From NCBI GenBank assembly GCA_014729085.1, contig WJKM01000014.1, positions 1 to 60,731 of the forward strand: DNA of 60,731 nucleotides, given 5' to 3'. Of the stretch, positions 6,371 to 53,161 are shown piece by piece. A program made the translations under genes and the position numbers. This stretch comes from Candidatus Dojkabacteria bacterium (GTDB lineage Bacteria; Patescibacteriota; Dojkabacteria; B142; WJKM01). The notes below the pieces were generated by a model. The model saw only the letters and a list, made by a program, of their open reading frames with translations. It did no database searches and was not told where the DNA came from. The number at the start of each line of letters is the position of its first letter. Positions within the stretch are counted from its first letter, which is position 1.

Positions 6371-7237
6371 TTAAAATCCGCTATCACTTGGTCTTTCATC
6401 AGTAACTTCATATTCTTCCTCAACGGTATCAAAATGTGTTGTGGTATCTGATTTTCTCTCAATAAAATCAATTACTACTTCATCAAGTTTTTCCTTATAG
6501 GAAACTGAATCTAAAAGCTGTCTTTCTTTTTCCCCATCTTCAATTGGTAAATATTGATACTTAGACAATGCAATTTCCATTTTAGAATTTCCCTCTAATT
6601 GGTTCTCCAACTCCATTTCAGTAATGACAATAAAGTCACTTCCTGTATATATCGCAGAAAGAAAATCCCTGAAATTTTGCAACGGAGCCGTCAAACTTAA
6701 TTCTGTTGCGATCTGTACTAACTTCAGCTGAGGTTTTCCTTGACTAGTTTCTCCATCAGGGGATACCTCTGGTTCATTCTCCAGGATTCTTTCCCCTGTA
6801 ATCAGTTCTGGAAGATCTACAATAGTTTCAAATCCAATTTGCCTTAATTTTTCTTCAAAAGAGACGACCTCTGTTTTGGAGGTAGGAATGATCAAGTTCA
6901 ATCTATCAAGCAATTCCGAGTTTAATTGATTAGATTCACGTAACTGTTGTAATTCCGTTAATTCCACTTTTGCCTGTTGTAGTTCTGCTTCAACCTTTTC
7001 TTTATCTTCCAAACTCTTATACATTTCCTTAATTTGAGGAATTGTTGCGTAGAAAAGTATAGCGGCAAAAATTATTAGTGAAAAAATTGGCACATAATAC
7101 AGCTTAATCTTCCTCTCCAAAGACTCAGATTCCATTTTTTGCTGTTGTTTTTTGCGCAGATTATCTTCGATCTGACTCTTGTCTTGCTTTTTTATTTTTG
7201 CCTTTGGAGTATTTTTTTGATTATTCTGTTCGGCCAT
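6371..7237 (-). CDS. PilO-like type IV pilus alignment protein
   Basis: TM segment, coiled coil and ferredoxin-like tail; third gene after pilM. Confidence 0.65.
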   Translation of the reverse strand: MAEQNNQKNTPKAKIKKQDKSQIEDNLRKKQQQKMESESLERKIKLYYVPIFSLIIFAAILFYATIPQIKEMYKSLEDKEKVEAELQQAKVELTELQQLRESNQLNSELLDRLNLIIPTSKTEVVSFEEKLRQIGFETIVDLPELITGERILENEPEVSPDGETSQGKPQLKLVQIATELSLTAPLQNFRDFLSAIYTGSDFIVITEMELENQLEGNSKMEIALSKYQYLPIEDGEKERQLLDSVSYKEKLDEVVIDFIERKSDTTTHFDTVEEEYEVTDERPSDSGF

Positions 7238-7242
7238 TTGAT

Positions 7243-7794
7243 TTAGTCTAGAAGATTAAATGTAATTTGAAATTCTATCGCTCCAGAATTTTCCTCGTTT
7301 TGTAAATATGACAATTCAACATCCAAAATTTCTTCATTATTTCTAAATATTCTATTAATTGAAGCTACAGAAGAAGGAGAGTCGGCAATTGCTTTTATAA
7401 AAAACTTACCAGTTTTCTCACGCCCATATGTTGTAATATGTATATCTAAATTCGAGTCTTTAATAACTCTCTGGACAATGTTAAAAAACTTCTCCGGATT
7501 AACATCCCTAATCACAATATCTTTTAGGACTCTAGTTTTTAAAATTAAAAGGGCTTTCTTATCTTTATCAGATTGATATTCAAGCATTTCTCGCTCAACC
7601 TGACTGATTTCATTTCTAATATTTTTAATACTTCTTTCTACCGAATAATTTAAAAACATAAAAATAATCCATCCAAGTACGGCAACAAAGGGGAGAACTG
7701 CAGCAAACATAGAAGTATTTTCTACAGCGGTTTTAGTCTTTTGCCTTTGTTCAAAAACTTCCTTTGGAAGCAAATTAAAACCTTTGTTTTCCAT
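7243..7794 (-). CDS. PilN-like protein
   Basis: N-terminal FNLLP PilM-binding motif, TM segment, coiled coil. Confidence 0.75.
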   Translation of the reverse strand: MENKGFNLLPKEVFEQRQKTKTAVENTSMFAAVLPFVAVLGWIIFMFLNYSVERSIKNIRNEISQVEREMLEYQSDKDKKALLILKTRVLKDIVIRDVNPEKFFNIVQRVIKDSNLDIHITTYGREKTGKFFIKAIADSPSSVASINRIFRNNEEILDVELSYLQNEENSGAIEFQITFNLLD

Positions 7795-7821
7795 TTCCAA
7801 TTATTATTAATAAATTTTTAA

Positions 7822-8889
7822 TTATTCCTGTTTAAGTCCCAAACCTATTGCTACAGTATAACCTGCTGGAACAACCTCGTTTTTAATGTTGGAAAGTCCA
7901 CCTGTTAACTTTAAATTTGCCATAGGATCAAAAATACTTGTATTTACTCCAAGAGCTGTTTGTATATATTGAGCTAATCCAGGCATCATTGAGCCATTAC
8001 CTGTCAATAATATTTGTTGTGGTTTTCCATATTGAAGTCTGGTTTCGACAAACCCATTTATCTTATGTAATTCATTCACAACAACATCAAGAACAGGTTT
8101 AATTGAATTGTAAATTTTTCCTCCATCCGCTTGATTAGGAAGAACACCGTACGCAGTTTTATATTGTTCAGCTTGACTAGGCTGAATACCAAAATCGGTT
8201 GAAATGGCTTTGGTGAACATAGCTGATCCATTTCGTATACTTTGAGAAAAAATAACTTTTCCGTTATACACAACACAAGCATTAGTAGTATCAGCTCCAA
8301 AATCTATCATCATTGTAAGAGGTTGATTCCCTTGATAAGTGAAAGAAAAAGCCCGAGCAATTGCTACAGACTCTACTTCTAGTGCTACCAATTCTAATTC
8401 TGCCCGGTGGCAAAGTTCTAGATATCCTTCAACCATACTTCTTGGCGCAGCAATAACCATTGCCGAAACAGCATTTGTTCCATCTGAATTTTTCTTCCGT
8501 TCAATTTCTATCCAATCCACCTGGGCTTCTTCAAGAGGAATTGGTAAAACCTGTTTGGCTTCCCAATATATCATTTCCTCTAGTTTTGCTTGATCTACAA
8601 GTGGTAAATTAGGTAACAGCTTTGTAAAAATTGTGCTTTCAGGCATAGAGGTTACAACCTGTTTTAACTTAACACCTGATGATTGAATTAAAGTTTTTAA
8701 TGTCGATACCATCAGTTCTAATTTTTCAGGTTCCTCCTTAGATGGAATTACAGTTTCAAGATCATTTGGGAAATTGATACTCCCAATTGCCTTAAGTCTA
8801 GCAGAATTTGAACCTTTTCTATCAATCTGTACTAATTTTATCGAACTCTGTCCAATATCAAGAGCAAAAAATGGTGTTCCAGAAGCCAT
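7822..8889 (-). CDS. pilM: Type IV pilus assembly protein PilM
   Basis: ALDIGQSSIKLV, IDFGADTT, LLTGNGS, VAIGLGLK actin-like motifs. Confidence 0.93.
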   Translation of the reverse strand: MASGTPFFALDIGQSSIKLVQIDRKGSNSARLKAIGSINFPNDLETVIPSKEEPEKLELMVSTLKTLIQSSGVKLKQVVTSMPESTIFTKLLPNLPLVDQAKLEEMIYWEAKQVLPIPLEEAQVDWIEIERKKNSDGTNAVSAMVIAAPRSMVEGYLELCHRAELELVALEVESVAIARAFSFTYQGNQPLTMMIDFGADTTNACVVYNGKVIFSQSIRNGSAMFTKAISTDFGIQPSQAEQYKTAYGVLPNQADGGKIYNSIKPVLDVVVNELHKINGFVETRLQYGKPQQILLTGNGSMMPGLAQYIQTALGVNTSIFDPMANLKLTGGLSNIKNEVVPAGYTVAIGLGLKQE

Positions 8890-9021
8890 ATTCAATTTAT
8901 AATAAATATTACTCTTATATTTTGTACTATTTAATACAAAAAATCAATTAATCTATAAAAGAAATATTGATAAATATAATTCTAGTTGCTAATCTATTAC
9001 TGATAAAATCAATAAATAATT

Positions 9022-9168
9022 GTGACAAATAAAAATCTTGAATTTAGAAGAAATGTTGGTTTGCGAAACAATATTCAACCTGCAGAAATTATACTTTACG
9101 ATCCTAGGTATATTATTCTATTCGAAGATATTTTAGGATATAGTCTATTAACTGTTAGAGAAAAGTAA
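9022..9168 (+). pseudogene. Isolated 3' end of an adhesin gene (possible 48-aa GTG-start mini-ORF)
   Basis: Encodes EFRRNVGLRNNIQPAEIILYDPRYIILFEDILGYSLLTVREK*, identical to the C-terminus of 9193..11976. Confidence 0.75.
9038..9168 (+). repeat. 131-bp direct repeat, copy 1
   Basis: Matches 11846..11976 with 2 mismatches. Confidence 0.95.
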
Positions 9169-9192
9169 TTAATATTATACAAGCATTACTCT

Positions 9193-11976
9193 ATGAAAGA
9201 TCTATTTTATCTCTATAAGAAGACTAAATATATATCTATTCTAATATTAATAATTATTCTGTTTGTCATCATACAAACCAGAAGTATATATGCCCAAGAA
9301 TGTCATGATGGAAATTATAAAAATGTTGGTTGTAATAATTGTGGAGGGGATTGTACTTATCAATATTGTGTAGGGGGTACGTGGATAGATCAACATGCAA
9401 CCTGTAATGATGATAAACCAGAGCCAGGTTGTCAGGGTAAGTGTGGTGGTGGTGGCAGTACACCTAGTTGCGGAGATGGCAGTGTTAATCAAGGATCTGA
9501 AGAATGCGACGATGGAAATACTAATAATGGTGATGGGTGTGATAGTAAATGTAAACTGGAATGCGGAAATATTACAATAAACACAGATGATCAAATGACA
9601 AGATTATCAGGAACACAGCCTTTAGCACTTTCATGGGACTATAATCAAACTAGTACTGACCCTAGATGCAATCCTACTTCCTATACTGTTCACTATGTCG
9701 AAAAACCAAGTTTTGATGTCGCAGATAAATCAGACTGCTTCAAAGATGCAGATGGTAATGATATTACAGGAACAGAAATTATTGTAAACGATACAAGTAA
9801 GACAAACGTAACCGTAGAAATTAATAATGGAACAAATAATATTGACTGGCAAAAACCCTATTGCTGGAAGGTTCAAGTAAATAAAGAAGCTGAGAAGACA
9901 GTAGAAGCCGGACCAAATAGTTTTAGAACAAATTATGCTCCGATTTTTTCAAGAGCAGGTATTCAATTTGTAGATAACACAAGAACTCAATTAGATCAAC
10001 AAACACAGCCCTGGGGTATTGATCCAGTTAATTCTGGCAACCCCGTCTGTTCATCTGGTTGGGATGTCTCCTGTAATACAATTACTAATGATACGGACTT
10101 AAATCTTGGGGGGGAGAATGTCTGTTGGTTAGCGGGGCACGATCCAGTAGATGCTCCAGGACAAGACCATACTATTTACCTTTGGTTCGAATATTTCGAC
10201 CCAGATAACGAACCAGTATCTCAAGAACCTAACGAATCTCAAAGACATCGACTTGCTTTTGTAGAAAAAGATTTTTTTAATCCCATAGAGTCAGCCTCAA
10301 ATATCCAAAATGCAGGGAATGTAAGTTCGGGAAATACATTATTCTACTCACACTTTGCAAACTTATTAAGCACAGAAACGCCTAGCATTACTACCCAAGA
10401 GGGGAATACCAACATTTCCATAGTTGAATCAAAAAGACTCCATTTTAATAATAACAAAGTCCGAATTATATATAAAATTCGATTTAATAGAGACGTATCT
10501 TATACTGGACATTATGATATTTATGAGATGATGGAACATAATGTAGATGATCCAAACATTGGTTTTACAGGAGAAAATTTAGGTGACCACTTTACCGGAA
10601 TTGATCCTTCTACAGGCAAACAATATCAAAAAATAGGTACTTTCAGTATTGATAATGAAGAACCCGAAGTTGGTGTAAACCCTCCTATTATTAACGGATA
10701 TCATTCATTCAATCTTACATGGCTGGACCAAACCGGTACTCAAGGATCTGATCTTAAAACTTTTAAAGGATATTGCTATTCGGACAACAGCCCAAGTTTC
10801 AACCTTATATATCTTGGCCCTTACAGTCCAAATCCAGAAACTAAAACTTTAGACGTTATTGACATAAACAGGGTACCAGCAGGATATAATGAATGCCTTC
10901 CACTTACTGCAAAAATTGAGGTAATTGCAAATGGAACCGCTACAACTAATTATAGTTTTGAAAATAACCTACATTCTTACCGAAGATTTGATGACTTAGT
11001 TATTTCTACCATAGATGCAGAAGACAAAGCTTGTAATGTGAATAATGATCCTTATATTGATCCACAAAAATTATTCGACCCTTGGATAACTACACGACAA
11101 GGAACTGTACATTCTGATGGGAGCATTGATATCAATACACCTTTTGAAGTTGACAGCTCAATTAGAACAGATAATTCTCTGTATTATGGACAATGGCCAT
11201 TTTACAACAACACCCCTCCGGAATTAATTAGGATCTCATCTAATATGTTGAGTAGTCAAGTTGCTACTCTAACTAATCAGTCTTTAAACAATCAGAAAAT
11301 AACAAATTATTTTGATCTGAATTATACACCAAAATTCGGACCTGTTGCCGATAATTGGTATGATTATTTCAAAGGTTTTCTGGAAAATGCAGGACTAAGT
11401 TCAAGTATGAAACAAATAAGTGGGGATAAAAGTATAAATAGTATATCAAGTCTAAACCCATCATGTACGAACCATAGATGCTTTTATGAAATTAATGGGA
11501 ACCTTACTATTGGGCCAGCAAATCCCTCTCGTTGCGACAAACAAAGTTTGATATTTATACAAGGAAATCTTACAATAATTGATGATTTTACTAACAATGG
11601 AAGTCCAAATAATGCTTGTATATTTATTGTAAAAGGAAATATAACATTTGAAAATGGAAGTCAACCTCTAGATGCCGATCCCTCAATGGGCGGAAATACA
11701 GCTCCATACAATGGGGTAGCCGGCTTCTTTATTTCGGACTCAAGTATAGATAAAACAATAAAAGTTAAAAAAGATGCCCAAATGGTAACTGGTAGTCCAT
11801 ATGCTGATGCATTGGTAATTAGAGGTGGACTTGTTTCAGACAATGTTGAATTTAGAAGAAACGTTGGTTTGCGAAACAATATTCAACCTGCAGAAATTAT
11901 ACTTTATGATCCTAGGTATATTATTCTATTCGAAGATATTTTAGGATATAGTCTATTAACTGTTAGAGAAAAGTAA
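9193..11976 (+). CDS. Large secreted Cys-rich pilus-associated adhesin-like protein (paralog A)
   Basis: Signal peptide (..IYA|Q), DUF4215/Myxococcus Cys-rich repeat [16 protein letters not shown], Fn3-like YCWKV segment, C-terminal GNLTI repeats; lies inside the T4P locus. Confidence 0.75.
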   Translation: MKDLFYLYKKTKYISILILIIILFVIIQTRSIYAQECHDGNYKNVGCNNCGGDCTYQYCVGGTWIDQHATCNDDKPEPGCQGKCGGGGSTPSCGDGSVNQGSEECDDGNTNNGDGCDSKCKLECGNITINTDDQMTRLSGTQPLALSWDYNQTSTDPRCNPTSYTVHYVEKPSFDVADKSDCFKDADGNDITGTEIIVNDTSKTNVTVEINNGTNNIDWQKPYCWKVQVNKEAEKTVEAGPNSFRTNYAPIFSRAGIQFVDNTRTQLDQQTQPWGIDPVNSGNPVCSSGWDVSCNTITNDTDLNLGGENVCWLAGHDPVDAPGQDHTIYLWFEYFDPDNEPVSQEPNESQRHRLAFVEKDFFNPIESASNIQNAGNVSSGNTLFYSHFANLLSTETPSITTQEGNTNISIVESKRLHFNNNKVRIIYKIRFNRDVSYTGHYDIYEMMEHNVDDPNIGFTGENLGDHFTGIDPSTGKQYQKIGTFSIDNEEPEVGVNPPIINGYHSFNLTWLDQTGTQGSDLKTFKGYCYSDNSPSFNLIYLGPYSPNPETKTLDVIDINRVPAGYNECLPLTAKIEVIANGTATTNYSFENNLHSYRRFDDLVISTIDAEDKACNVNNDPYIDPQKLFDPWITTRQGTVHSDGSIDINTPFEVDSSIRTDNSLYYGQWPFYNNTPPELIRISSNMLSSQVATLTNQSLNNQKITNYFDLNYTPKFGPVADNWYDYFKGFLENAGLSSSMKQISGDKSINSISSLNPSCTNHRCFYEINGNLTIGPANPSRCDKQSLIFIQGNLTIIDDFTNNGSPNNACIFIVKGNITFENGSQPLDADPSMGGNTAPYNGVAGFFISDSSIDKTIKVKKDAQMVTGSPYADALVIRGGLVSDNVEFRRNVGLRNNIQPAEIILYDPRYIILFEDILGYSLLTVREK
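11846..11976 (+). repeat. 131-bp direct repeat, copy 2 (3' end of paralog A)
   Basis: Matches 9038..9168. Confidence 0.95.
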
Positions 11977-11998
11977 AACTTTTAATTCTTTTTATATA

Positions 11999-14821
11999 AT
12001 GCTACGAAAAACTAAAATAAAGCAGTCAATCATATTTATTCTTATAATAACTCCAGTATTATTATTCATAAGTAGTTTCTTTATATCAAGAATAGTATAT
12101 GCAGGTTGTTGGACTGGATCATGTTCGGCAGGTGGTTGCAGTTCAGGATCAAGTGATGGTGATTACTGTGAATGTCCACATAAAGATGACTGCTGTTCTG
12201 GAAAATGTAGAGATGGAGATGGACTTCCCGGAGCTGAACACTGTCATTGTGGATCTTCTCCTCCTGCAAAAAAATGTGGGGATGGAGATGTAAACAGGGA
12301 TCCAGAAGAATGTGACGATGGAAATACCAATAATGGTGATGGGTGCGATAGTAATTGTAAACATGAATGCGGAGATATAACTTTAAATACCAATGATGAA
12401 TTGACTAGACTATCGGCGACTGAACCTCTTACTTTAAGCTGGACCTATAACCAAACTAAATCCCATGCAGATTGTAATCCTACTTCCTATACATTATGGT
12501 ACGTCGAAAAACCAAGTTTTGATGTCGCAGATAAATCAGACTGCTTTAAAGACGCTGATGGGAACGATATTACCGGTACTGAAATTACTGTAAATAAAAC
12601 AGGTACAACAAACGTAACTAAAATTATCAATAATGGTAGTAATAATATTGATTGGCAAAAGCCTTATTGCTGGAAAGTAAGAGTAAATAAAGATGCAAGT
12701 AAGGAAATAGGTGCCGGCCCCAACTCATTTAGGACAAATTATGCTCCAGTTTTTTCAAGAGCAGGTATTCAATTTGTAGATGCGGGAAAAACAGATATGA
12801 CAGATTCAAGTAATGGTTGGGGAATCAATCCTGTCAATTCTGGAAACCCTGTCTGTTCATCTGGTTGGGATGCAACATGTAATACAGTTACAAATAACTC
12901 AGATTTAAATTTGGGAGGGGATACAGATTGCTGGATAGCTGGTTATGATACAGATGACGCTTCAGGGCAGGACCATACTATTTACCTTTGGTTCGAATAT
13001 TCGGATCCCGATAACGAACTTGTTGCACAAGAACCAAACGAATCACAAAGACATCGCCTTGCCTTTGTGAAAAAAAATTTCTTTAATCCAATCGAAACAG
13101 CATCAAATATACAAAACATGAGTCACTTAAATACAGGAAACACATTGTTCTACACCTATTTTTCTAACCTATTAAATAGCCAAACGCCAACTCTTAGCAA
13201 CCAAGAAGGTAATTTATATGTTCATATCGAAGAGTATAACCGAATCCTTTTTGATAATAATAAAGTCCGCATTATATACAAAATAAAATTTGATCGCCCT
13301 AACCCGAATGCATGGTGGATCTTGCCATACAGCGGGACTTTCGATATCTACACAATGATGGAACATAATGTCGATGATCCAAATCTTGGATTTACTGGAG
13401 AAAATATGGCTGATCATTTTGGAGGAAATGATCCAACTACCGGAAAAAGATATCAAAAAATTGGCAGTATAAGTATAGACACAGAAGAACCTGAGGTAGG
13501 AGTCGAGCCTCCAATTATTGATGGATATCACTCTTTTGATTTAACTTGGAGTGATCAAACAATAACACAAGGATCTGGGCTAAAAAATTTTGAAAGCTAT
13601 TGTTATTCGGACAACCCTCCAAGTTTCGATCTGATTTACCTCGGCCCATATGGTACATTTCCTCAAACCAAAACAATTGAAACTATTGATATAGGAGCTA
13701 TTCCTACTGGTTATAATGAATGTATTCCCCAAGAAGCAAAGACTGAAGTTATCAACAATGGCTCTGCAATAACCGAACACAGTTTTGGAAATGATTTAGC
13801 TTCATACAGAAGATTTGACGATCTTGTTGTAGCTACAATTAATGCAGAAGACAATGCATGTAATAAAAAAGATGATCCATTTACAGATCCTCAACAACTC
13901 TTCAATCCTTGGATTACAACCAGACAGGGGACTGTTCATTCTGATGGAAATATAGACATTAACACTCCTTTTGAGGTCGACAGCTCAATTAGAACAGATA
14001 ACTCCCTTTATTATCATCAATGGGCATTCTATAACAATACACCACCAGTATTAATGCGTATCTCATCAAATATGTTGAGTAGTCAAGATGCAACTTTAAC
14101 AAACCTTTCTCTCAATAATCAAAAACTTCCAGGTTACTATGATCTTAACAATATACCCAGATTCGGTCCAGTCGCCGATAGCTGGTATGATTACTTTAAA
14201 GGCGTTTTGATTAACTCTGGTAATGCCTCAGCTATTTATACGATTACAAACAATCTCTCTATTACGAATATTTCAGAAATTGATGGAAATACATGTTTAG
14301 GCCCAAGATGCTTCTATGAAATAATTGGGAACTTAACAATTGGACCTGCAGATCCTCCGGCTCAATGCAATCGACAAGCATTAATTTTTGTTGATGGTAA
14401 TTTAACAATTATTGAAGATTTTACAAATGGAGGAGATCCTAATAACGGTTGTATATTTATTGTAAAAGGAAATATTTTATTTACAAATGACACAAATACA
14501 GCCCCTCTAGATGCCGACTCTACAATGGCACCTGGATCAAATACAGCCCCTTATAACGGAGTTGCTGGTTTCTTTATCTCAGAAACAAATTCAAATCATA
14601 CAATTAAAGTAAAAAAGGATGTCCAAATAATAAGCAATGTACCGTATGGAGATGGTTTTGTATTAAGAGGGGGTTTGATAGCAGATAATTACGATTTTAG
14701 AAGAAACGTAGGGTTGAGAAATAATATCCAACCTGCAGAAATACTACTTTATGACCCTAGATACATCATTCTTTTTGATGATCTATTTACTTACAGTATG
14801 TTAAATATTAGAGACAAATAA
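11999..14821 (+). CDS. Large secreted Cys-rich pilus-associated adhesin-like protein (paralog B)
   Basis: Colinear with paralog A over most of its length; different N-terminal Cys module. Confidence 0.75.
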   Translation: MLRKTKIKQSIIFILIITPVLLFISSFFISRIVYAGCWTGSCSAGGCSSGSSDGDYCECPHKDDCCSGKCRDGDGLPGAEHCHCGSSPPAKKCGDGDVNRDPEECDDGNTNNGDGCDSNCKHECGDITLNTNDELTRLSATEPLTLSWTYNQTKSHADCNPTSYTLWYVEKPSFDVADKSDCFKDADGNDITGTEITVNKTGTTNVTKIINNGSNNIDWQKPYCWKVRVNKDASKEIGAGPNSFRTNYAPVFSRAGIQFVDAGKTDMTDSSNGWGINPVNSGNPVCSSGWDATCNTVTNNSDLNLGGDTDCWIAGYDTDDASGQDHTIYLWFEYSDPDNELVAQEPNESQRHRLAFVKKNFFNPIETASNIQNMSHLNTGNTLFYTYFSNLLNSQTPTLSNQEGNLYVHIEEYNRILFDNNKVRIIYKIKFDRPNPNAWWILPYSGTFDIYTMMEHNVDDPNLGFTGENMADHFGGNDPTTGKRYQKIGSISIDTEEPEVGVEPPIIDGYHSFDLTWSDQTITQGSGLKNFESYCYSDNPPSFDLIYLGPYGTFPQTKTIETIDIGAIPTGYNECIPQEAKTEVINNGSAITEHSFGNDLASYRRFDDLVVATINAEDNACNKKDDPFTDPQQLFNPWITTRQGTVHSDGNIDINTPFEVDSSIRTDNSLYYHQWAFYNNTPPVLMRISSNMLSSQDATLTNLSLNNQKLPGYYDLNNIPRFGPVADSWYDYFKGVLINSGNASAIYTITNNLSITNISEIDGNTCLGPRCFYEIIGNLTIGPADPPAQCNRQALIFVDGNLTIIEDFTNGGDPNNGCIFIVKGNILFTNDTNTAPLDADSTMAPGSNTAPYNGVAGFFISETNSNHTIKVKKDVQIISNVPYGDGFVLRGGLIADNYDFRRNVGLRNNIQPAEILLYDPRYIILFDDLFTYSMLNIRDK

Positions 14822-14822
14822 A

Positions 14823-15923
14823 ATGGAAAACTTATTTAAAAAAATAAATCATAATTTAAAAGGACAAATACTAGTTATAATCTTGATTGTAATGCTTGTT
14901 TTAGGAATTACAGTTATCACAGTCACCAATAATGTCATTCGGGATATTTCCCAAAGCAAACAAAATACTCAGTATGAATCCTTATATTCAACAGCCGAAA
15001 AACATGTTTTAAATATTGCCCAAAGTCTTCCTTCTGATAATGTAACCCCTACAAATGTACAAACAACTCTTGAAGATTCAGGATTTGATGATGTGTCTTG
15101 CGATACAGCAGACGACGACTCACCAGATAGTCCCTCTGTAATATGTAGTGTTACAGACCCAACAAATCCGGTAGACGATGCCGAACTTCAAATTAAAGTC
15201 AAGGATAGTCCGCATATCATAAGAGCGGTACTTGCAAAAGACGAAATCATAGCATTTAAATTAAATGGTGACCTTGAAGGACATGGACAAACACTGGATG
15301 TAACCATGGAAGGAGAAGGGGACATTGCAATAGAAGTAATACTTGATTTTAAATACAATGGTGCAAGTGAATACAATGCTGTTAGAGGCGTTTATGATAG
15401 GAATTTATCTGTATTCACTAATCTGCAAGATAATGTCTTTGATATGCCTATAACGGGTACTGGCGATGGATTTTATATTGACTATGATTCATTAAAATCA
15501 AATATAGCTTCGAGTTACTTAGCCAATTTTACAACTGGTGATCCTGGAGATATTGAATTATTACAATTTAGATTCAGACCAATTATAAAAACAGGTGATC
15601 CAAATTCAATGCCTACTATTTATTTGTCTGTAATTAACAGTGATACAAACTTTAATCAAGCTATCATGCAAAGTAGGGTATTTGATGCGACCTCATATGT
15701 AATGAAAGATGGAAAAATCTTCGGTTCCCAAGCTTTTGCAACAGCAAGCCTTCCTTTACATAAATATCCAAGTATTTTAGACTACGTTCTTAGAAGCCAC
15801 TCAGATTTAACTCACTTCCAGGATTGCATTCCAACCGGAAATACTTGTGGTGATGAAGCATCTGAATGTTGTTCAGGTGTGTGTCAAGTTATACTAACTA
15901 CAGCTGTTTGCGTTAATAGTTAA
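14823..15923 (+). CDS. PilX-like minor pilin with C-terminal Cys-knot-like tail
   Basis: KG|QILVIILIVML class III leader lacking Glu5, as in PilX/GspK. Confidence 0.7.
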   Translation: MENLFKKINHNLKGQILVIILIVMLVLGITVITVTNNVIRDISQSKQNTQYESLYSTAEKHVLNIAQSLPSDNVTPTNVQTTLEDSGFDDVSCDTADDDSPDSPSVICSVTDPTNPVDDAELQIKVKDSPHIIRAVLAKDEIIAFKLNGDLEGHGQTLDVTMEGEGDIAIEVILDFKYNGASEYNAVRGVYDRNLSVFTNLQDNVFDMPITGTGDGFYIDYDSLKSNIASSYLANFTTGDPGDIELLQFRFRPIIKTGDPNSMPTIYLSVINSDTNFNQAIMQSRVFDATSYVMKDGKIFGSQAFATASLPLHKYPSILDYVLRSHSDLTHFQDCIPTGNTCGDEASECCSGVCQVILTTAVCVNS

Positions 15924-15937
15924 TAACAGATATTAAT

Positions 15938-16504
15938 ATGATTAAAATCTTTAAGTCATTAAAAAAAATAAATCATTTAAAAGCGTATTCATTATTAGAA
16001 GTATTAGTTACACTCCTTATCGTAAACATAATTCTCCTAATGGTATCTCAAATTCTAGTAATTTCTCTCCGCCTATCTGTACAAGCACAAGAAAGATCAT
16101 TTGCACGAGAGGAGTTAACCAATATCATTAATTTGATTAAAGCAGACATAAGAAATGCAGATAATTTAATGAATGATTGTACAAATAGCAATAGCTGTAC
16201 TCTAATGAAAACAAGTGCAGAAATTATGTGGCATCTTTGTGATGCAAACAACGACGGTGTTGATGACCAAATATGTAAAGATAACATTACAAGTGGTAAT
16301 ACCGAGTATATTAGCAATGAAAAGCTTATTATCGATCCAAACACTTTTTCTTTCTTGGAAGTGTCTTCTGGAGGAGCTGGTGGTAATATCAGAGACAGAA
16401 TTTCTATACTGATTACAATATCAGCTGACCACAGAAACGAGGATCTTGAAATAACAAATCTCTATAGACAGGTAATAATTTCTACAAGAAACTTCTACAT
16501 CTAA
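15938..16504 (+). CDS. PilW/GspJ-like minor pilin
   Basis: KA|YSLLEVLV prepilin motif; IKADIRNA helix. Confidence 0.75.
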   Translation: MIKIFKSLKKINHLKAYSLLEVLVTLLIVNIILLMVSQILVISLRLSVQAQERSFAREELTNIINLIKADIRNADNLMNDCTNSNSCTLMKTSAEIMWHLCDANNDGVDDQICKDNITSGNTEYISNEKLIIDPNTFSFLEVSSGGAGGNIRDRISILITISADHRNEDLEITNLYRQVIISTRNFYI

Positions 16505-16507
16505 ATT

Positions 16508-17062
16508 TTAGGAGAGAGGAAGCTGTCTATAAGTATCAACTCTTTCAACCTGTGGATCATCCTCATTTTGTATATAATACACCACAATGGATGTAATTCT
16601 AATTTTATCACTCATAATATCTGAACCTGCATTTGCACCAGCTGTTACATTCGTAAAGATAATCTGATTACATATATTTACCCCAGGTGTATTTGTAAGC
16701 AGATACGAACTATTATCTAAACAATCAGAAATTATATCCGGATTATTCATATCTACACCACTACATGTCGAATCCACTAATATTAAGTCATTATTATCAT
16801 CAAGTTTATAACAATAAGTTTGGTCCTGTTGACTAAAATCTGCATTCACTAGAGTAGAGGGAAGATCCAACTGGTTATATTCTAACGCCCTAAGCATTAC
16901 ACCTGCTGCCGTATCTCTTATCTCATTATCTTTAGTAGATCTAACCCCAATGGAAACTGTCCTAATTGCTAAAATCATAGTAGAAGCAACCAAAAGTAAG
17001 GCAATTAGAGCCTCTACTAACCCAAAACCTTTTTTAATCGATTTCTCTGAATATATTCCCAT
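16508..17062 (-). CDS. PilV-like minor pilin
   Basis: KKG|FGLVEALIAL; ATG at 17062 preferred. Confidence 0.75.
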   Translation of the reverse strand: MGIYSEKSIKKGFGLVEALIALLLVASTMILAIRTVSIGVRSTKDNEIRDTAAGVMLRALEYNQLDLPSTLVNADFSQQDQTYCYKLDDNNDLILVDSTCSGVDMNNPDIISDCLDNSSYLLTNTPGVNICNQIIFTNVTAGANAGSDIMSDKIRITSIVVYYIQNEDDPQVERVDTYRQLPLS

Positions 17063-17684
17063 CTGTTTCAAATTTATAATTATGTACTCGTCCTGAAGAA
17101 CCTTTTTGAACGTGACTGACTTCCACATCACATTCAGACCCTGTTAAATTAGATGAAGGATTGATTTGATTTAAAGAACTTGGACTAGAAATCCCCGTCA
17201 AAATATTCATTCTACCAGTCTTGTTTTCGTATAAAATTCCATTACATGCCACACTTCCCGTAGACCCTCCTGGAGAATTAAAATTCACACTTTCTATTGG
17301 CTGACTTTGCAAAGGCTCTACCGTTGAACAATCATACCATCCTTCAACACCTACTCCTGATAATCTTTTGCAACTTCTTACTTCATAGGAATTACCACTA
17401 AAATATATTAAGTATCCATGTATTTGGGTATTAAAAATTTCTTCTGAGGTACTTCCGACTCCTTCGGGATTGGCACGGCTGACAACATTATTTCTTGCAT
17501 TATTCTGTACAGTCTTCACCATATTTTCAAATTGTGCAGAACCTGAAGCAAGTTCCGATCCTACCTTAAAATTATTAATTGCACTAAAACCTATTGATGC
17601 AATCACCATAAATATAAGCATAACCACAAGTATCTCGATGATAGTCATACCTTTATTTAATTTTATTCCATTCTTTCCGTTCAT
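17034..17684 (-). CDS. FimT/FimU-like minor pilin
   Basis: NKG|MTIIEILVVM; VQNNA helix. Confidence 0.75.
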   Translation of the reverse strand: MNGKNGIKLNKGMTIIEILVVMLIFMVIASIGFSAINNFKVGSELASGSAQFENMVKTVQNNARNNVVSRANPEGVGSTSEEIFNTQIHGYLIYFSGNSYEVRSCKRLSGVGVEGWYDCSTVEPLQSQPIESVNFNSPGGSTGSVACNGILYENKTGRMNILTGISSPSSLNQINPSSNLTGSECDVEVSHVQKGSSGRVHNYKFETDGNIFREID

Positions 17685-17698
17685 TTATGAAGGACAGG

Positions 17699-18520
17699 TT
17701 ATAAATAAGGAAACAACATATTGAAAACAATCTGATGTTCAAAGTATGCAATTATAAACCCTAAACTAATAAAAGGAATAAATTGAATCATTGTTCCTTT
17801 TATCTTCTGATTAACAAAAATGGCCTTTAATAGTCCTATTAAGGAACCAACAACCGTTGATAAAAAGAATACAACAATTAAACCTTTCCATCCTAAGATA
17901 AAACCTACAAGCCCAAAAATCCATGCGTCTCCGAAACCAAGCCCCCTTCCTTTGGAGAGTGCTATCAATGCTACAATTACAGAAACACCTGTAATTCCTG
18001 ATAAAAAATATTCAACAATTTTTATTAACTCTATCTTACCAAAAAAATATAAAAAAATATAACTTACGGAAAACACAATAAATGCAAAAAGAATCAAATA
18101 TACAGGGACTTCCCAGTATAAATAATCAAAGTAACCTAGATAAATAAAGAAAAAACTAAGCAATAGCCCCACCAAAACAAATTCTAGGGTATATTGCTGA
18201 AATTGAAAAAACAAATAGAAGGGGATAAAGAAAGTAAAACCAGAAATAATCTCAAGCCAGAATAATGACATATTGATTTTTGATTTGCATTTTGTACACT
18301 TACCTTTCTGGAAAATATATGATAATAATGGAATTAATTCTACTGGTTTCAGAATCTTCCCACAATTATCGCAACGTGACCTTGTTAAAAATATTTTAGG
18401 AAATGAGATATTTGACTTTTTTTTTGGATTAAGTCTAGAAGCAATAGCTCCAATAAAACTTCCGATAGAAGCACCAAGGAAGAATATTATTATATAAAGC
18501 GCAAGATACAATATCACCAA
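17699..18520 (-). CDS. pilD: Prepilin peptidase (A24)
   Basis: RSRCDNC, GKCTKC, GLGFGD, FIPFI. Confidence 0.93.
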   Translation of the reverse strand: MVILYLALYIIIFFLGASIGSFIGAIASRLNPKKKSNISFPKIFLTRSRCDNCGKILKPVELIPLLSYIFQKGKCTKCKSKINMSLFWLEIISGFTFFIPFYLFFQFQQYTLEFVLVGLLLSFFFIYLGYFDYLYWEVPVYLILFAFIVFSVSYIFLYFFGKIELIKIVEYFLSGITGVSVIVALIALSKGRGLGFGDAWIFGLVGFILGWKGLIVVFFLSTVVGSLIGLLKAIFVNQKIKGTMIQFIPFISLGFIIAYFEHQIVFNMLFPYL

Positions 18521-18614
18521 ATATTTACTTAAAACTAAGATAATTTAAGTTTCACACATGTTTCAAAGATATAAATTCCTGTTTCACAAACTATTTCAAA
18601 AAAAATATATGAAA

Positions 18615-19841
18615 CTAAGACATATTTTGTCCAATACTATAAATCGGCAGGTAGATACCAACAGCAAGTAAGGCAACAATTCCTCCAACAATGACCAATA
18701 TTAAAGGCTCCATTAACTTACTTAAATTTTCACTGATTTCGTTTACTTCATCTTCAAAGAACTGTGCCATATCAGAAAGTATTTGATCAAGTTTTCCTGT
18801 TTCTTCTCCAATTGCGACCATTCTAACAATCAAAGGAGGGAATACCTCGTAACGTGATAAGGGTACGGCCAAGGGCGCCCCACTTGAAATATCTTCGATT
18901 GAATCTAGAAGTGCATTTTTAAAAAGAACATTGTCTAAAGAAGTCGAAACAATATTCAAAGTTTCTATTATCGATATTCCACTTCTCATAAGCATGGAAA
19001 CTAATCTGCAAAATTGTGTTATCTGAATTTTAGTGATTAGATTTCCAAAAACAGGCAATTTTAAGATTAATTTATCTGTTGTTAGCCTTCCTCCAGTTGT
19101 AGATCTGTAATACCTGAAACCTAAAATCACACTTGCCAATACAATTATCATAATTGTTGCTCCGACCGGATTAGTCATAAAATTACTGATATTAACGAGA
19201 GTTTTAGTCACAAAAGGCAGATCATCGGCTGTCATGCCAAAGTCCTCATAAAGTTTCTCTACAGCTGGAATCATTGTTGTCATCATTACAACCATGACAA
19301 TACCAATAACTATAAATATTATTACTGGATAAATCATTGCGCTCTTAATCTTTGAAGTCAGTTGTTTAGTCTTATCTAAATCTTCAGCAACTTTAGTTAA
19401 AATGTCATTTAAATTTCCACTTGCTTCACCAGCTCTAATTAAACTTATCTGGACCTCGTTAAACATTTTGGTATGTTCTTCCATTGCATCAGATAAAGGA
19501 ACTCCATTCTTTTGAATATCTTCTAAAACAGCTTCCATATTCTTTTGTAAAGCTTTATCTTGCGTCTGTTGAATAATAATCTCCAATGCTTGAATAATTG
19601 GCAAACCTGCTCCAAGCATAGTTGCAATTTGTTTTGCAAATATTACTTTATTCTTAAGAGAAACTTTTGGGGTTCCACCAGTAAAAATAGTTTCCATATA
19701 ATCTATCTTCTCTTCAATACTCACAATGACTAAGTTTTGCTGATGAAGAAATGTAGCTACGGCATCTCTTGAATTTCCCTCTTGGACTCCTGTAATCTTT
19801 TTTCCATTTGGATTTATGGCTACGTATTTATATTCTGCCAT
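18615..19841 (-). CDS. pilC: Type IV pilus platform protein (T2SS F family)
   Basis: Two GspF domains: AGEASGNL, AMIYP, IGEETGKL, LMEP. Confidence 0.95.
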   Translation of the reverse strand: MAEYKYVAINPNGKKITGVQEGNSRDAVATFLHQQNLVIVSIEEKIDYMETIFTGGTPKVSLKNKVIFAKQIATMLGAGLPIIQALEIIIQQTQDKALQKNMEAVLEDIQKNGVPLSDAMEEHTKMFNEVQISLIRAGEASGNLNDILTKVAEDLDKTKQLTSKIKSAMIYPVIIFIVIGIVMVVMMTTMIPAVEKLYEDFGMTADDLPFVTKTLVNISNFMTNPVGATIMIIVLASVILGFRYYRSTTGGRLTTDKLILKLPVFGNLITKIQITQFCRLVSMLMRSGISIIETLNIVSTSLDNVLFKNALLDSIEDISSGAPLAVPLSRYEVFPPLIVRMVAIGEETGKLDQILSDMAQFFEDEVNEISENLSKLMEPLILVIVGGIVALLAVGIYLPIYSIGQNMS

Positions 19842-19871
19842 TACAGTCTCTTACTAAAAAATATCAATAAA

Positions 19872-21320
19872 TTAATTACTACCAATTAAGTTTTTTAATT
19901 CTGATGGTTTATTTGTATACTCTAAAGCTGCTTCGGAAGTAATTTCACCATTTCTAACGAGTTCAGCTAAAGGTTTCTCGATCAAAAACATACCCGCATC
20001 TGCACTTGTTTGGATGATATTGTCGATCTGGTAAGTCTTTCCTTCACGAATAGCATTTCGAACAGCAGCAGTACCAATTAAAATTTCATGAACTGCTTTT
20101 CGGCCACCTCCAATTAAAGGTACCAGTCGCTGGGAAACTACGGCCTGCAAAACAACTGCTAACTGAGCCCTAACCTGATCCTGTTGATGTTCTGGAAAAA
20201 CGTCAATAATACGATCAATCGTTTGTGCTGCCGAGTTAGTATGTAATGTAGCAAAAACTAAGTGTCCTGTTTCAGCTACTGTTATTGTAGACGAAATTGT
20301 TTCGAAATCACGCATCTCTCCAACTAATACAACATCCGGGTCTTGTCGCAAAAGATACTTTAAGGCATTTTTCCAGGACATTGAATCTTTTCCTATTTCT
20401 CTCTGGTCTACCAAAGCTTGCCCCTTACCATACAAATATTCAATCGGATCTTCAATAGTAATAATATGTTTAGGATAAGTTAAATTTATTTCATTTAATA
20501 CAGCTGCCAATGTTGTACTTTTACCACTACCAGTAGGTCCAGTAACTAATACTAATCCATGAGGTAATTTAGTAAAAGATTCAATTACATCAGGAAGTCC
20601 TAATTCAGTAATAGTCCTTATTCGAGCCGGAATTAAACGAAAGGCCCCAGCCATATTTCCCCTTTCAAAGTATAAATTTACACGAAATCTAGATCCTGAA
20701 GTATGCTGATAAGAAAAATCCAACTCTTTATCTTCATGATATCTCTTTAACTGTTTCTTATCTATTATTGAAACAAACAATTCTTCTGACTTTTCCTGTG
20801 TTATAGGTTCAGAACCAACTCTTTCCAACTTACCATCCACCCTTAAGAGGGGAGGATAGCCAACAGTAAAATGAAGGTCAGAAGCATTCCTAGTCTCACA
20901 TAAATCTAAAAATGTACCTATATTAGCATTTTGCACAGATAAAGTTTGTTGAACATTAATATTAGGCTGTTGGGTATTTCCAGAATTAACAACTGGCTGA
21001 TTCTGGGGATTCTGCTGTTGTGCATTAACCATTCCCGCGGGATTATTCATCTGTTGTGTCTGTATATTTGCTGGCGGATTATTCGAATTAAAATCAGGAC
21101 CTTTAACTTCAACCACTTCACCACCTTGTTGTTGATTATTTTGATTCTGTACTGTTGTTTGTTGCTGGGCCTGATTAGTCTGAGTTTGTTGAGATGGAGC
21201 ATTCTGAGCAGATTGCTGAGATGTATTTGGTTGAGGTTGAGCAGAGGCAGATTGTCCATTCTGCTGAACTTGCGAAGATTGCTTGTTTTGGTTTTCATCT
21301 CCAATATTAACAAGGGGCAT
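19872..21320 (-). CDS. pilT: Retraction ATPase PilT with Q/N-rich N-terminal extension
   Basis: ASDLH, GPTGSGKST, TIEDPIE, LRQDPD, AETGHLVFATLHTN, AVRNAIRE. Confidence 0.95.
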   Translation of the reverse strand: MPLVNIGDENQNKQSSQVQQNGQSASAQPQPNTSQQSAQNAPSQQTQTNQAQQQTTVQNQNNQQQGGEVVEVKGPDFNSNNPPANIQTQQMNNPAGMVNAQQQNPQNQPVVNSGNTQQPNINVQQTLSVQNANIGTFLDLCETRNASDLHFTVGYPPLLRVDGKLERVGSEPITQEKSEELFVSIIDKKQLKRYHEDKELDFSYQHTSGSRFRVNLYFERGNMAGAFRLIPARIRTITELGLPDVIESFTKLPHGLVLVTGPTGSGKSTTLAAVLNEINLTYPKHIITIEDPIEYLYGKGQALVDQREIGKDSMSWKNALKYLLRQDPDVVLVGEMRDFETISSTITVAETGHLVFATLHTNSAAQTIDRIIDVFPEHQQDQVRAQLAVVLQAVVSQRLVPLIGGGRKAVHEILIGTAAVRNAIREGKTYQIDNIIQTSADAGMFLIEKPLAELVRNGEITSEAALEYTNKPSELKNLIGSN

Positions 21321-21412
21321 GTCAATCTACCTGTTATTAAAATAAATGAATAAATTATTCCAATTAAATATTAGTCTAATTTTGTAATAAATACAAATAA
21401 TAAACCTCTTTC

Positions 21413-53017: not shown

Positions 53018-53161
53018 TAGTTTTAGTTGCAAACAGTAAAATACTTTAAAAAGTGCATATAATATGCTCTTTAGCATAAAAATTTTTCGAAGAAAAGTCA
53101 AGAGGAATACCAGAATAACAAAATTAGTTCAAGCTTGTTTAACATAATGCACTCATTAAAT

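What the first reader, a model, noticed from the sequence alone, without database searches (positions are those of the whole stretch)
9022..11976. Pilus adhesin gene bracketed by a 131-bp direct repeat of its own 3' end: candidate excisable or amplifiable adhesin cassette
Seen: 9038-9168 equals 11846-11976 except for two synonymous third-position changes (AAT/AAC, TAC/TAT). Both copies end exactly at TAA, 2808 bp apart. Paralog B's 3' end is far more diverged. Inference: recombination between the repeats would pop out paralog A as a 2808-bp circle with an intact ORF and leave paralog B behind the same upstream region, or would amplify A. Alternatively the first copy is the scar of a recently deleted third paralog. 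Either way it suggests an accordion-type array for swapping pilus-tip adhesins, relevant to host range in an episymbiont. The scar can also be read as a 48-aa GTG-start peptide made only of the conserved C-terminal motif.
Basis: partly seen in the sequence, partly recalled or inferred. Interest (0 to 1): 0.8.

Follow-up and report, generated by a model that had tools for sequence, protein, structure and literature searches.

The report
Leftover gene end beside pilus-linked paralogs
A 131-base copy of the end of a large secreted-protein gene sits just upstream of that gene in a type IV pilus cluster of an ultrasmall bacterium, and it is most likely the leftover of a lost third gene copy, not a switching device.

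Summary
Window 9038-9168 matches 11846-11976 at 129 of 131 bases. Both differences are synonymous, both copies end at TAA, and they lie 2808 bp apart.

Genes A (927 aa) and B (940 aa) are old tandem paralogs: 69% aa identity, dS about 1.7, dN/dS 0.15. They encode Sec-type secreted proteins, not pilins. They occupy a conserved slot between pilM and a minor-pilin pair in the type IV pilus cluster of a Patescibacteria order.

Most relatives carry one gene in this slot. Tandem pairs arose repeatedly, and the pairs group by genome.

The repeat is much younger than the A/B split (dS about 0.08). Its homology ends abruptly on both sides, and the flank shows no further trace of a gene. The best reading is a remnant of a third, A-like tandem copy whose 5' 2.65 kb was deleted.

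No recombinase, variant information or population heterogeneity could be shown. No sequencing runs were listed and no near-identical strain was found.

Misassembly is unlikely, because the assembly looks like a k=141 graph and the longest shared exact run is 69 bp. Interest is low to modest.

The parts
7822..8895 (-). pilM, divergent from the array; the likely start is the ATG at 8889
   Evidence: Pfam PilM_2 E=3.4e-41; the ATG was read and listed
8890..9037 (.). Intergenic region U between pilM and the fragment; shows no homology to A or B
   Evidence: Local alignments against A, B and downstream DNA score no better than shuffles (best case 5 of 200 shuffles as good, six comparisons). A sigma-70-like site on the minus strand at 9006-8979 faces pilM.
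9038..9168 (+). Repeat copy 1 (P1): a 5'-truncated fragment equal to the last 43 codons plus stop of gene A
   Evidence: 129 of 131 identical to 11846-11976; both differences are derived on this copy, because A and B share the other state
9022..9168 (+). 48-codon GTG ORF: 5 unrelated codons followed by the fragment
   Evidence: ORF list; called as the 48-aa protein P0091 in the public collection; there is no evidence of translation
9169..9192 (+). 24-bp spacer between the fragment's stop and A's ATG
   Evidence: not alignable with the 22-bp A-B spacer beyond a shared TTAAT
9193..11976 (+). Gene A, 927 aa: signal peptide, Cys-rich region with one myxo_disulf_rpt, beta-sandwich domains, C-terminal beta-helix domain
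   Evidence: (TIGR02232 38.9 bits, cut-off 20.8)
11846..11976 (+). Repeat copy 2 (P2): the native 3' end of A
11977..11998 (+). 22-bp spacer between A and B
11999..14821 (+). Gene B, 940 aa, an old paralog of A
   Evidence: 69% aa identity (598 of 872); dS 1.67, dN 0.25; its 3' end at 14693-14821 is 77% identical to the repeat
14823..15923 (+). Conserved 366-aa partner gene with an N-terminal hydrophobic segment and a Cys-rich C-terminal tail
   Evidence: Syntenic next to the A-like gene in 5 relatives: G009, G010, G013, G001 and G011; sequence
15938..16504 (+). Minor pilin, 188 aa
   Evidence: N_methyl E=0.0013; weak PilV and ComGF matches, below cut-off
16508..17684 (-). Two prepilin-type minor pilin genes (207 and 216 aa)
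   Evidence: N_methyl and prepilin-domain matches
17699..23257 (-). pilD (17699-18520), pilC (18615-19841), pilT-like ATPase (19872-21320), pilB (21413-23257)
   Evidence: Pfam Peptidase_A24, T2SSF and T2SSE
6371..7800 (-). Genes in the pilN and pilO positions (185 and 288 aa)
   Evidence: Conserved after pilM in relatives; no family match above cut-off

Best explanation
The 131-bp element is a non-functional remnant of a third, A-like member of a tandem array of T4P-linked secreted-protein genes. The inferred history has three steps. An ancestral single gene between pilM and the minor-pilin pair duplicated long ago to give A and B. The A lineage then duplicated again much more recently, or an older upstream copy was overwritten from A by gene conversion. 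Finally an illegitimate deletion removed that upstream copy's 5' 2.65 kb, and perhaps part of its upstream region, leaving only its last 43 codons, its stop and the spacer before A. The fragment now lies between the pilM-side intergenic region and A, probably inside A's 5' leader. Because it repeats A's own end, RecA-dependent recombination could occasionally delete or amplify A, as with any direct repeat. This is a by-product and not a dedicated mechanism. What is shown: the repeat, its boundaries, its relative age, the array, the conserved T4P context, and recurrent tandem duplication in the family. What is inferred: the order of events, the deletion, and the lack of function.
For: 1. The fragment fits the array's register: same strand, period 2808 bp against 2806-2847 bp for A/B, and gene end, short spacer (24 vs 22 bp), then next start.
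2. Homology stops abruptly at 9034-9038 and exactly after TAA, and the 148-bp region upstream shows no residual similarity to A or B.
3. Relative age: fragment vs A has 2 synonymous and 0 non-synonymous differences (dS 0.077), while A vs B has dS 1.67 and dN 0.25.
4. In the order, 19 of 24 genomes (the window's own included) match the C-terminal domain. In 7 of 11 related loci examined, T4P genes lie beside the A-like gene, and it is divergent from pilM in G009, G010, G013, G011 and G022.
5. The family makes tandem pairs repeatedly, and pairs group by genome: A+B support 100/99, the G011 pair 93/91, P0073+P0074 100/100. P0073 and P0074 share a nearly identical C-terminal stretch of about 700 aa but have unrelated N-terminal parts.
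6. The fragment encodes only the C-terminal cap of a confidently modelled beta-helix domain (pLDDT 88.3), so it is not a domain of its own.
7. There is no Rfam match, and the predicted RNA fold is no better than shuffles (z=+0.75).
Against: No related genome or metagenome contig close enough to show an intact third copy was found, so the lost gene is inferred and not observed. Both differences lie on the fragment's lineage and both are synonymous. This weakly hints at past or present purifying selection on that frame: the chance under neutrality is about 0.05 using all changes (85 of 384 synonymous) or 0.135 using transitions only (47 of 128). With n=2 it is not significant. The right-hand end of homology falls exactly at the stop codon, which needs a fortunate duplication breakpoint. 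No other fragment of this kind was found beside A-like genes in the 18 related loci examined. That means fragments like this one are not a usual by-product in the family.
Confidence: 0.65

Rival explanations
1. One-step partial duplication. A template switch during replication or repair copied A's last 131 bp into the site 24 bp upstream of A's start. Under this reading a complete third gene never existed.
For: Only two novel junctions exist, U|P1 and P1|spacer24, which is what a templated insertion would leave. No trace of a third gene's 5' part remains in U. U plus the spacer would give a plausible 172-bp pilM-A intergenic region; relatives range from about 66 bp to about 1.1 kb.
Against: An insertion has no reason to end exactly at the stop codon and thereby reproduce the gene end, short spacer, gene start layout of the array. 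Tandem duplication of whole genes is documented repeatedly in this family.
Confidence: 0.12
2. Working accordion. The repeat is used biologically. Subpopulations lose A, so that B becomes the first gene, or amplify A, changing which pilus-associated protein is made and in what amount.
For: The geometry is right. The exact shared runs are 16, 44 and 69 bp. RecA is encoded. The family shows fast turnover of tandem copies.
Against: Loss of A as a non-replicating circle is one-way. No site-specific recombinase was found among the 19 neighbouring genes scanned. The assembly passes through both copies without a break or an alternative contig. No reads could be obtained.
Confidence: 0.08
3. Functional leader. 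The 48-codon ORF is translated. It either keeps ribosomes terminating 24 nt before A's start (coupling, as A's end may do for B), or it yields a peptide that mimics the family's most conserved C-terminal motif.
For: The frame is open from GTG 9022. Both changes on the fragment are synonymous. The genome hardly uses Shine-Dalgarno motifs (5 of 50 starts listed), so reinitiation could matter. The fragment covers conserved family positions R889 and P899.
Against: In the searches of 40 relatives and of the order, C-terminal matches in relatives lay in open frames of 201 aa or more; only this window's fragment sat in a 50-aa frame. The piece is only the cap of a larger domain. The synonymous signal rests on n=2. 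The GTG start may be fortuitous.
Confidence: 0.05
4. Assembly artefact: the U-fragment junction is chimeric.
For: The genome is a 23-contig metagenome-type assembly, and the reads were not available.
Against: Seven contig-end pairs overlap by exactly 141 bp at 100% identity, the mark of a de Bruijn assembly ending at k=141. That this is MEGAHIT's default is recalled, not tested. The repeat (131-135 bp) is shorter than k, and the copies share at most 69 exact bases, so the two copies form separate paths. Each junction must be spanned by real 141-mers. No other contig of the assembly matches this region.
Confidence: 0.04

Closest known systems
Truncated pseudogene remnants at the edge of tandem gene arrays (birth-and-death evolution of paralog arrays)
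   Same: Same orientation and period as the array, abrupt loss of homology, only the 3' end kept, much younger than the older paralog pair.
   Different: Only two substitutions and no indel or frame disruption yet, so decay cannot be demonstrated. The lost copy is not seen in any relative.
Gene amplification or deletion between flanking direct repeats (RecA-dependent 'accordion' duplications; recalled general knowledge, no paper read here)
   Same: A whole gene is bracketed by direct repeats of 131 bp at 98.5% identity, and RecA is present.
   Different: No copy-number variation has been shown. The repeat is short, and its longest exact run is 69 bp.
Neisseria pilE/pilS silent-cassette antigenic variation (recalled)
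   Same: A promoterless, 5'-truncated copy of a pilus-related gene lies near the expressed gene.
   Different: pilS copies carry variant coding sequence that is donated to pilE. Here the fragment has no amino-acid difference from A and covers only the conserved end, so it cannot supply variation. A is not a pilin.
PilY1/PilC non-pilin tip-associated proteins of type IVa pili
   Same: A large Sec-type secreted protein encoded with minor pilin genes. It has variable N-terminal parts and a conserved C-terminal domain, and one family member has a VWA domain.
   Different: No PilY1/PilC Pfam match. The C-terminal domain is modelled as a beta-helix rather than a beta-propeller.
ComZ of Thermus thermophilus (PDB 6qvi; mBio 2019, PMC6561018, seen only as a search listing and the start of the abstract)
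   Same: A T4P-associated protein with a beta-solenoid. It is the second-ranked fold match to the C-terminal model.
   Different: The match is not significant (E=0.12, TM 0.27). ComZ is a pilin, and A lacks a prepilin leader.
PilX1/PilX2 lectin-like minor pilins of Nanosynbacter lyticus (bioRxiv 10.64898/2026.10.06.756255, passages read)
   Same: T4P-dependent host-binding proteins in Patescibacteria, with a binding module joined to a pilus-docking part.
   Different: Those are minor pilins with jelly-roll or beta-propeller heads. A and B are not pilins and have a different predicted architecture. No sequence relation was tested.

Membership tests
Remnant (pseudogene fragment) of a tandem paralog | Homology to part of a neighbouring paralog, with abrupt ends and no 5' part or native start of its own | tested here: met
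   129 of 131 identity limited to 9038-9168; the flanks are unrelated
Remnant (pseudogene fragment) of a tandem paralog | Lies in register with the array (same strand and period, followed by a spacer and the next gene) | tested here: met
   Spacing 2808 bp against 2806-2847 bp for A/B; 24-bp and 22-bp spacers
Remnant (pseudogene fragment) of a tandem paralog | Evolves without constraint | tested here: inconclusive
   Only 2 substitutions, both synonymous; too few to judge
Remnant (pseudogene fragment) of a tandem paralog | An intact counterpart exists in related genomes | tested here: not met
   No near relative found. The best A-like protein in genomes is 36% identical. Two metagenome scans and one genome-collection scan with A or the repeat returned nothing.
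Direct-repeat-mediated amplification/deletion ('accordion') | A gene flanked by direct repeats long enough for homologous recombination | tested here: met
   131 bp, with exact runs of 16, 44 and 69 bp
Direct-repeat-mediated amplification/deletion ('accordion') | Recombination machinery present | tested here: met
   RecA PF00154, 449.9 bits, on contig C21
Direct-repeat-mediated amplification/deletion ('accordion') | Copy-number or junction heterogeneity in the population | not testable with these tools
   No sequencing run was listed; the assembly has no alternative contig for this region
Programmed cassette systems (silent-copy gene conversion or site-specific excision) | The silent copy carries variant coding information | tested here: not met
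   0 non-synonymous differences from A within 9038-9168
Programmed cassette systems (silent-copy gene conversion or site-specific excision) | A dedicated recombinase or specific recombination sites nearby | tested here: not met
   None among the 19 neighbouring genes scanned with Pfam; inverted repeats in 7000-16000 are weak, at most 86% over 21 nt
PilY1/PilC tip-associated adhesins | PilY1/PilC-type C-terminal beta-propeller domain | tested here: not met
   No such Pfam match in A, B or the 50 family members scanned; the C-terminal model is a beta-helix
PilY1/PilC tip-associated adhesins | Non-pilin protein encoded with minor pilin genes of a T4P cluster | tested here: met
   Conserved order pilM | A-like, 366-aa gene, minor pilin | minor pilins, pilD, pilC, pilT, pilB in G009, G010, G013, G001 and G011
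PilY1/PilC tip-associated adhesins | Located at the pilus and needed for adhesion | not testable with these tools
   Needs experiments
Type IV (pseudo)pilins, including modular pilins such as ComZ | Prepilin leader with G/A-1 and E+5 (N_methyl motif) | tested here: not met
   No N_methyl match in A or B, unlike the neighbouring genes. The N-terminus reads as a Sec-type signal peptide; this is by inspection, and no predictor was run.
Cysteine-rich acidic repeat proteins (TIGR02232 / DUF4215) | A repeat match above the curated cut-off | tested here: met
   A 38.9 bits and B 33.7 bits, cut-off 20.8, residues 91-125. The Pfam DUF4215 match is below cut-off (22.4 vs 27).

The most novel reading that the evidence does not exclude
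The repeat is a live recombination substrate in the natural population. Cells that have dropped A (placing B first behind the same leader) or that carry extra copies of A coexist with the assembled form. This would give an ultrasmall, probably host-attached bacterium a RecA-driven way to change the dose or identity of a pilus-linked surface protein. The short leader ORF may be kept because it preserves translational coupling into A.
Probability: 0.08. Interest if true: 0.6.

Novelty: new member of a known kind. Interest (0 to 1): 0.25.

Why it matters
On its own the repeat is an ordinary by-product of gene duplication and loss. Its value is as a time stamp. It shows that this T4P-linked gene slot, single-copy in most relatives, has gained and lost copies very recently in this lineage. 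Another relative (P0073/P0074) holds two genes with almost identical bodies but different N-terminal parts. Together these point to fast turnover of a surface-protein family that no domain database describes. Its fixed place in the pilus cluster makes it a candidate host-contact protein in Patescibacteria. If reads ever showed heterogeneity at this repeat, it would be a simple, testable case of copy-number switching in an uncultured symbiont.

Tried and rejected
Coverage, junction reads and circles could therefore not be examined, and read laying was never run.

2. Close strains: protein A found nothing in metagenome contigs or genome contigs. An exact 44-mer of the repeat gave 0 hits in metagenome contigs. 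Records of the window's own genome or a very near one may be left out of these collections.

3. Word-based protein search with A: of the 68 proteins listed, the query itself and B aside, the other 66 cover at most 19% of A and match through the Cys-rich DUF4215 repeat.

4. Residual homology of the upstream region U to A, B or downstream DNA: none beyond shuffles.

5. Similarity between the two spacers: only a shared TTAAT.

6. Promoter and terminator scan of 8600-12300: 24 promoter-like sites against 18.2 expected, and no plus-strand site between pilM and A. This is uninformative in 33% GC DNA.

7. Shine-Dalgarno check for the 48-codon ORF: uninformative, because only 5 of 50 listed starts have any SD-like 4-mer.

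8. RNA element: no Rfam family at gathering score in the window, no tRNA, and the fold of 8990-9230 is no better than shuffles.

9. Fold search with the full-length model returned only generic tandem Ig-like hits with TM at most 0.22. The C-terminal model had 0 matches at E<=0.001. A profile against PDB sequences gave 0 hits.

10. Search for similar fragments beside A-like genes in 18 related loci: the extra short hits turned out to be ends of full-length genes or genes cut by contig ends.

11. Earlier notes of this scan: nothing near this place or by sequence.

12. Literature: no paper held all of 'candidate phyla radiation', 'pilus', 'tandem duplication' and 'adhesin'. None of the 12 papers listed holds both ComZ and Patescibacteria. 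Supplements were not consulted.
Full report
**Observation**

The sequence is as described. Window 9038-9168 and 11846-11976 agree at 129 of 131 positions. The two differences are 9054 T/C (AAT/AAC) and 9099 C/T (TAC/TAT). Both are third-position transitions that keep the amino acid in the gene's frame. BLAST extends the pair by four bases, to 9034-9168 vs 11842-11976 (135 bp, 97.8%), with one extra mismatch at 9037.

Both copies end at TAA and lie 2808 bp apart. The 1.6-Mb assembly holds only three copies of this stretch: these two, and the 77%-identical 3' end of the next gene at 14693-14821. A 44-mer from the repeat occurs twice in the window, and 0 of 100 shuffles gave two matches. Homology ends abruptly on both sides, at 9034-9038 on the left and immediately after the stop codon on the right. 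The 48-codon GTG frame at 9022-9168 exists. It is also present in the public protein collection as a called 48-aa protein on a 60731-bp contig.

**What the genes are**

Gene A (9193-11976, 927 aa) and gene B (11999-14821, 940 aa) are 69% identical at the protein level, 598 of 872 aligned residues. They lie in a type IV pilus cluster:
- pilM, with genes in the pilN and pilO positions, diverges to the left.
- A 366-aa gene and a 188-aa minor pilin follow to the right.
- Beyond these, on the other strand, are two more prepilin-type genes, then pilD, pilC, a pilT-like ATPase and pilB.

A and B have no prepilin motif. Their N-termini read as ordinary Sec-type signal peptides. This is my inspection; no predictor was run. 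Each carries one cysteine-rich acidic repeat above NCBIfam's cut-off (TIGR02232; 38.9 and 33.7 bits against 20.8).

An AlphaFold2 model of A built from 50 family sequences has mean pLDDT 74.2. It shows a disordered Cys-rich region, a run of beta-sandwich domains and a C-terminal domain. Its PDB fold matches are generic tandem Ig-like surface proteins, with TM at most 0.22.

The last 228 residues, modelled from 105 sequences, form a confident beta-helix-like domain (pLDDT 88.3, pTM 0.87). It has no significant PDB neighbour: 0 matches at E<=0.001, and the best are an ice-binding protein and ComZ of Thermus, both at E=0.12. A family profile found no PDB sequence at all.

The repeat encodes residues 885-927, which are the cap of this domain and not a unit of its own. 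It includes conserved family positions R889 and P899.

**Family and context**

An exhaustive HMMER search with A residues 130-927 found 148 cluster representatives at E<=0.001 among 1.84 billion proteins. Of these, 56 were at E<=1e-10 and 12 at E<=1e-30. The shared part is mainly the C-terminal 300 residues or so.

Among the 50 members scanned with Pfam, a few carry binding-type modules: PA14 in 2, CBM60 in 2, fn3 in 2, VWA in 1, SLH in 1. Most have no Pfam match.

In the order to which the genome belongs, 19 of 24 genomes (the window's own included) match the C-terminal domain. I examined 11 related loci for pilus genes, and 7 have them beside the A-like gene. Five show the same order as here: G009, G010, G013, G001 and G011. 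G022 shows pilM, and G031 shows pilC and pilD about 8 kb away. The four without pilus genes are a 9.8-kb contig, a 7.1-kb contig, a 6-kb stretch and G005.

The window's PilB is most similar to named MAGs of Candidatus Dojkabacteria (49%) and other Patescibacteria. An attached lifestyle is therefore plausible but not shown.

'Pilus-associated, possibly adhesive' is a reasonable label by position and architecture. 'Pilus-tip adhesin' remains untested. Published Patescibacteria pilus adhesins, PilX1 and PilX2 of Nanosynbacter, are lectin-like minor pilins, which is a different kind of protein (bioRxiv 10.64898/2026.10.06.756255, passages read).

**History of the array**

Most relatives have one gene in this slot. 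The window's genome has two, G011 has two (868 and 836 aa), and G022 has a second copy running off its contig.

In a tree of the last 330 residues of 26 proteins, the pairs group by genome: A+B at 100/99, the G011 pair at 93/91, and P0073+P0074 at 100/100. So duplication, or homogenisation, happened separately in each lineage.

P0073 and P0074 are each recorded on a single contig of the same length, 76897 bp, so they are probably neighbours. They are almost identical over their last 700 residues or so but unrelated at the N-terminus.

A and B are old paralogs: dS 1.67 (saturated), dN 0.25, dN/dS 0.15, with purifying selection along nearly the whole length. The fragment and A differ by 2 synonymous changes in about 27 synonymous sites (dS 0.077) and by no non-synonymous change. 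At both sites A and B share the same base, so both changes fall on the fragment's lineage.

**Best explanation**

The fragment is what remains of a third, A-like copy at the head of the array. It has the array's strand and period. Like a real array member, it ends with a stop codon followed by a short spacer (24 bp, against 22 bp between A and B) and the next start codon. Upstream of it, the 148-bp region reaching to pilM has no detectable similarity to A, B or the downstream genes.

The simplest history is as follows. A recent duplication of the unit 'spacer plus A' occurred, or an older copy was overwritten from A. An illegitimate deletion then removed about 2.65 kb of that copy.

The weak points are these:
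- No close strain shows the intact copy.
- The right-hand homology limit falls exactly at the stop codon.
- Both substitutions are synonymous. The chance of that under neutrality is about 0.05 using all possible changes (85 of 384 synonymous) or 0.135 using transitions (47 of 128). With two events this is only a hint that the copy was a working gene until recently, or that the short frame still matters.

**Rival explanations**

- One-step templated insertion of A's end upstream of A. It would leave the same two junctions and cannot be excluded. It gives no reason for the boundary at the stop codon.
- Biologically used accordion. It has the right geometry, exact runs of 16, 44 and 69 bp, and a RecA gene. 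But loss of A would be irreversible, and I found no recombinase among the 19 neighbouring genes scanned. The fragment carries no variant information, and the assembly shows no alternative form. Reads could not be obtained.
- Functional leader ORF or peptide. No evidence separates this from chance. The genome hardly uses Shine-Dalgarno motifs (5 of 50 starts), so ribosome-binding signals cannot be judged. In the relatives searched, every match to the C-terminal part lay in an open frame of 201 aa or more, and only this window's fragment sat in a 50-aa frame. The RNA has no notable structure and no Rfam match.
- Assembly artefact. This is unlikely. Seven contig-end pairs overlap by exactly 141 identical bases, the signature of a de Bruijn assembly finishing at k=141. 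That this is MEGAHIT's default is recalled, not tested. The repeat is shorter than k and the copies share at most 69 exact bases, so each junction must rest on real 141-mers.

**Comparison with known systems**

The fragment belongs with truncated copies at the edges of tandem arrays. It also creates the substrate for repeat-mediated deletion or amplification, which is general knowledge recalled here and not read in a paper.

It is not like the silent pilS cassettes of Neisseria, because it carries no alternative coding sequence.

The gene family resembles PilY1/PilC in position and in being non-pilin. It fails their defining C-terminal domain. Its resemblance to ComZ is not significant.

Earlier notes of this scan from other genomes describe Patescibacteria pilus-linked paralog arrays with a C-terminal solenoid. 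They also describe decayed copies, and gene conversion between neighbouring pilus-protein genes. These are unchecked AI notes. My own results agree with the first of them in kind, but I could not compare sequences.

**Verdict**

The cassette or accordion reading is possible in principle but has no evidence. The finding is an ordinary by-product of gene turnover. It sits in a poorly known, pilus-linked surface-protein family that is evolving quickly. Interest is 0.25.

Noticed in passing
Relatives' proteins P0073 (1018 aa) and P0074 (1106 aa), each on a 76897-bp contig: The two family members are almost identical over their last 700 residues or so but have unrelated N-terminal parts of about 300-400 aa; one source names P0074 a fibro-slime domain protein. 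This looks like head swapping, or 3' homogenisation, between probable neighbours. The DNA could not be fetched.
   Followed up: partly
window 15824-15923 (C-terminus of the 366-aa gene at 14823-15923): The conserved partner protein ends in a short Cys-rich stretch with a weak, below-cut-off Pfam Conotoxin match (E=0.0018, 19.7 bits vs 25.1). It may be a small disulfide knot on a minor-pilin-like protein.
   Followed up: no
Whole assembly G000 (contig ends): Seven contig-end pairs overlap by exactly 141 identical bases, and four more by 139. Several contigs could probably be joined, and this points to a k=141 de Bruijn assembly.
   Followed up: partly
G000:C23:115203-115384 and 118343-118523 (outside the window): A 182-bp direct repeat at 97.8% identity lies in two intergenic regions flanking a three-gene block on the minus strand. 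tRNA-Gly and tRNA-Val genes lie near the second copy.
   Followed up: partly
G000: C8:301301-301452, C20:5527-5672, C17:2475-2603, C23:60320-60455, C13:102696-102828, C14:9149-9272, C4:32785-32923: A dispersed repeat of about 130-150 bp at 90-95% identity, on several contigs and both strands. Five copies were scanned for tRNAs and none was found. Its nature is unknown.
   Followed up: partly
window-wide gene starts: Only 5 of 50 listed gene starts have any Shine-Dalgarno-like 4-mer within 25 nt upstream, and window GC is 33%.
   Followed up: no
L035 3743-4866 (G011): In G011, two small ORFs (194 and 180 aa) with no NCBIfam match lie between pilM and the first A-like gene. They have no counterpart at this position in the window.
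   Followed up: no
window 16508-17684 (-): The two minor-pilin ORFs overlap by 98 bp as listed (16508-17131 and 17034-17684). The downstream one probably starts later than its listed GTG start codon.
   Followed up: no
window 48398-53101 (-): A 1567-aa ORF, the largest in the window, was not examined.
   Followed up: no
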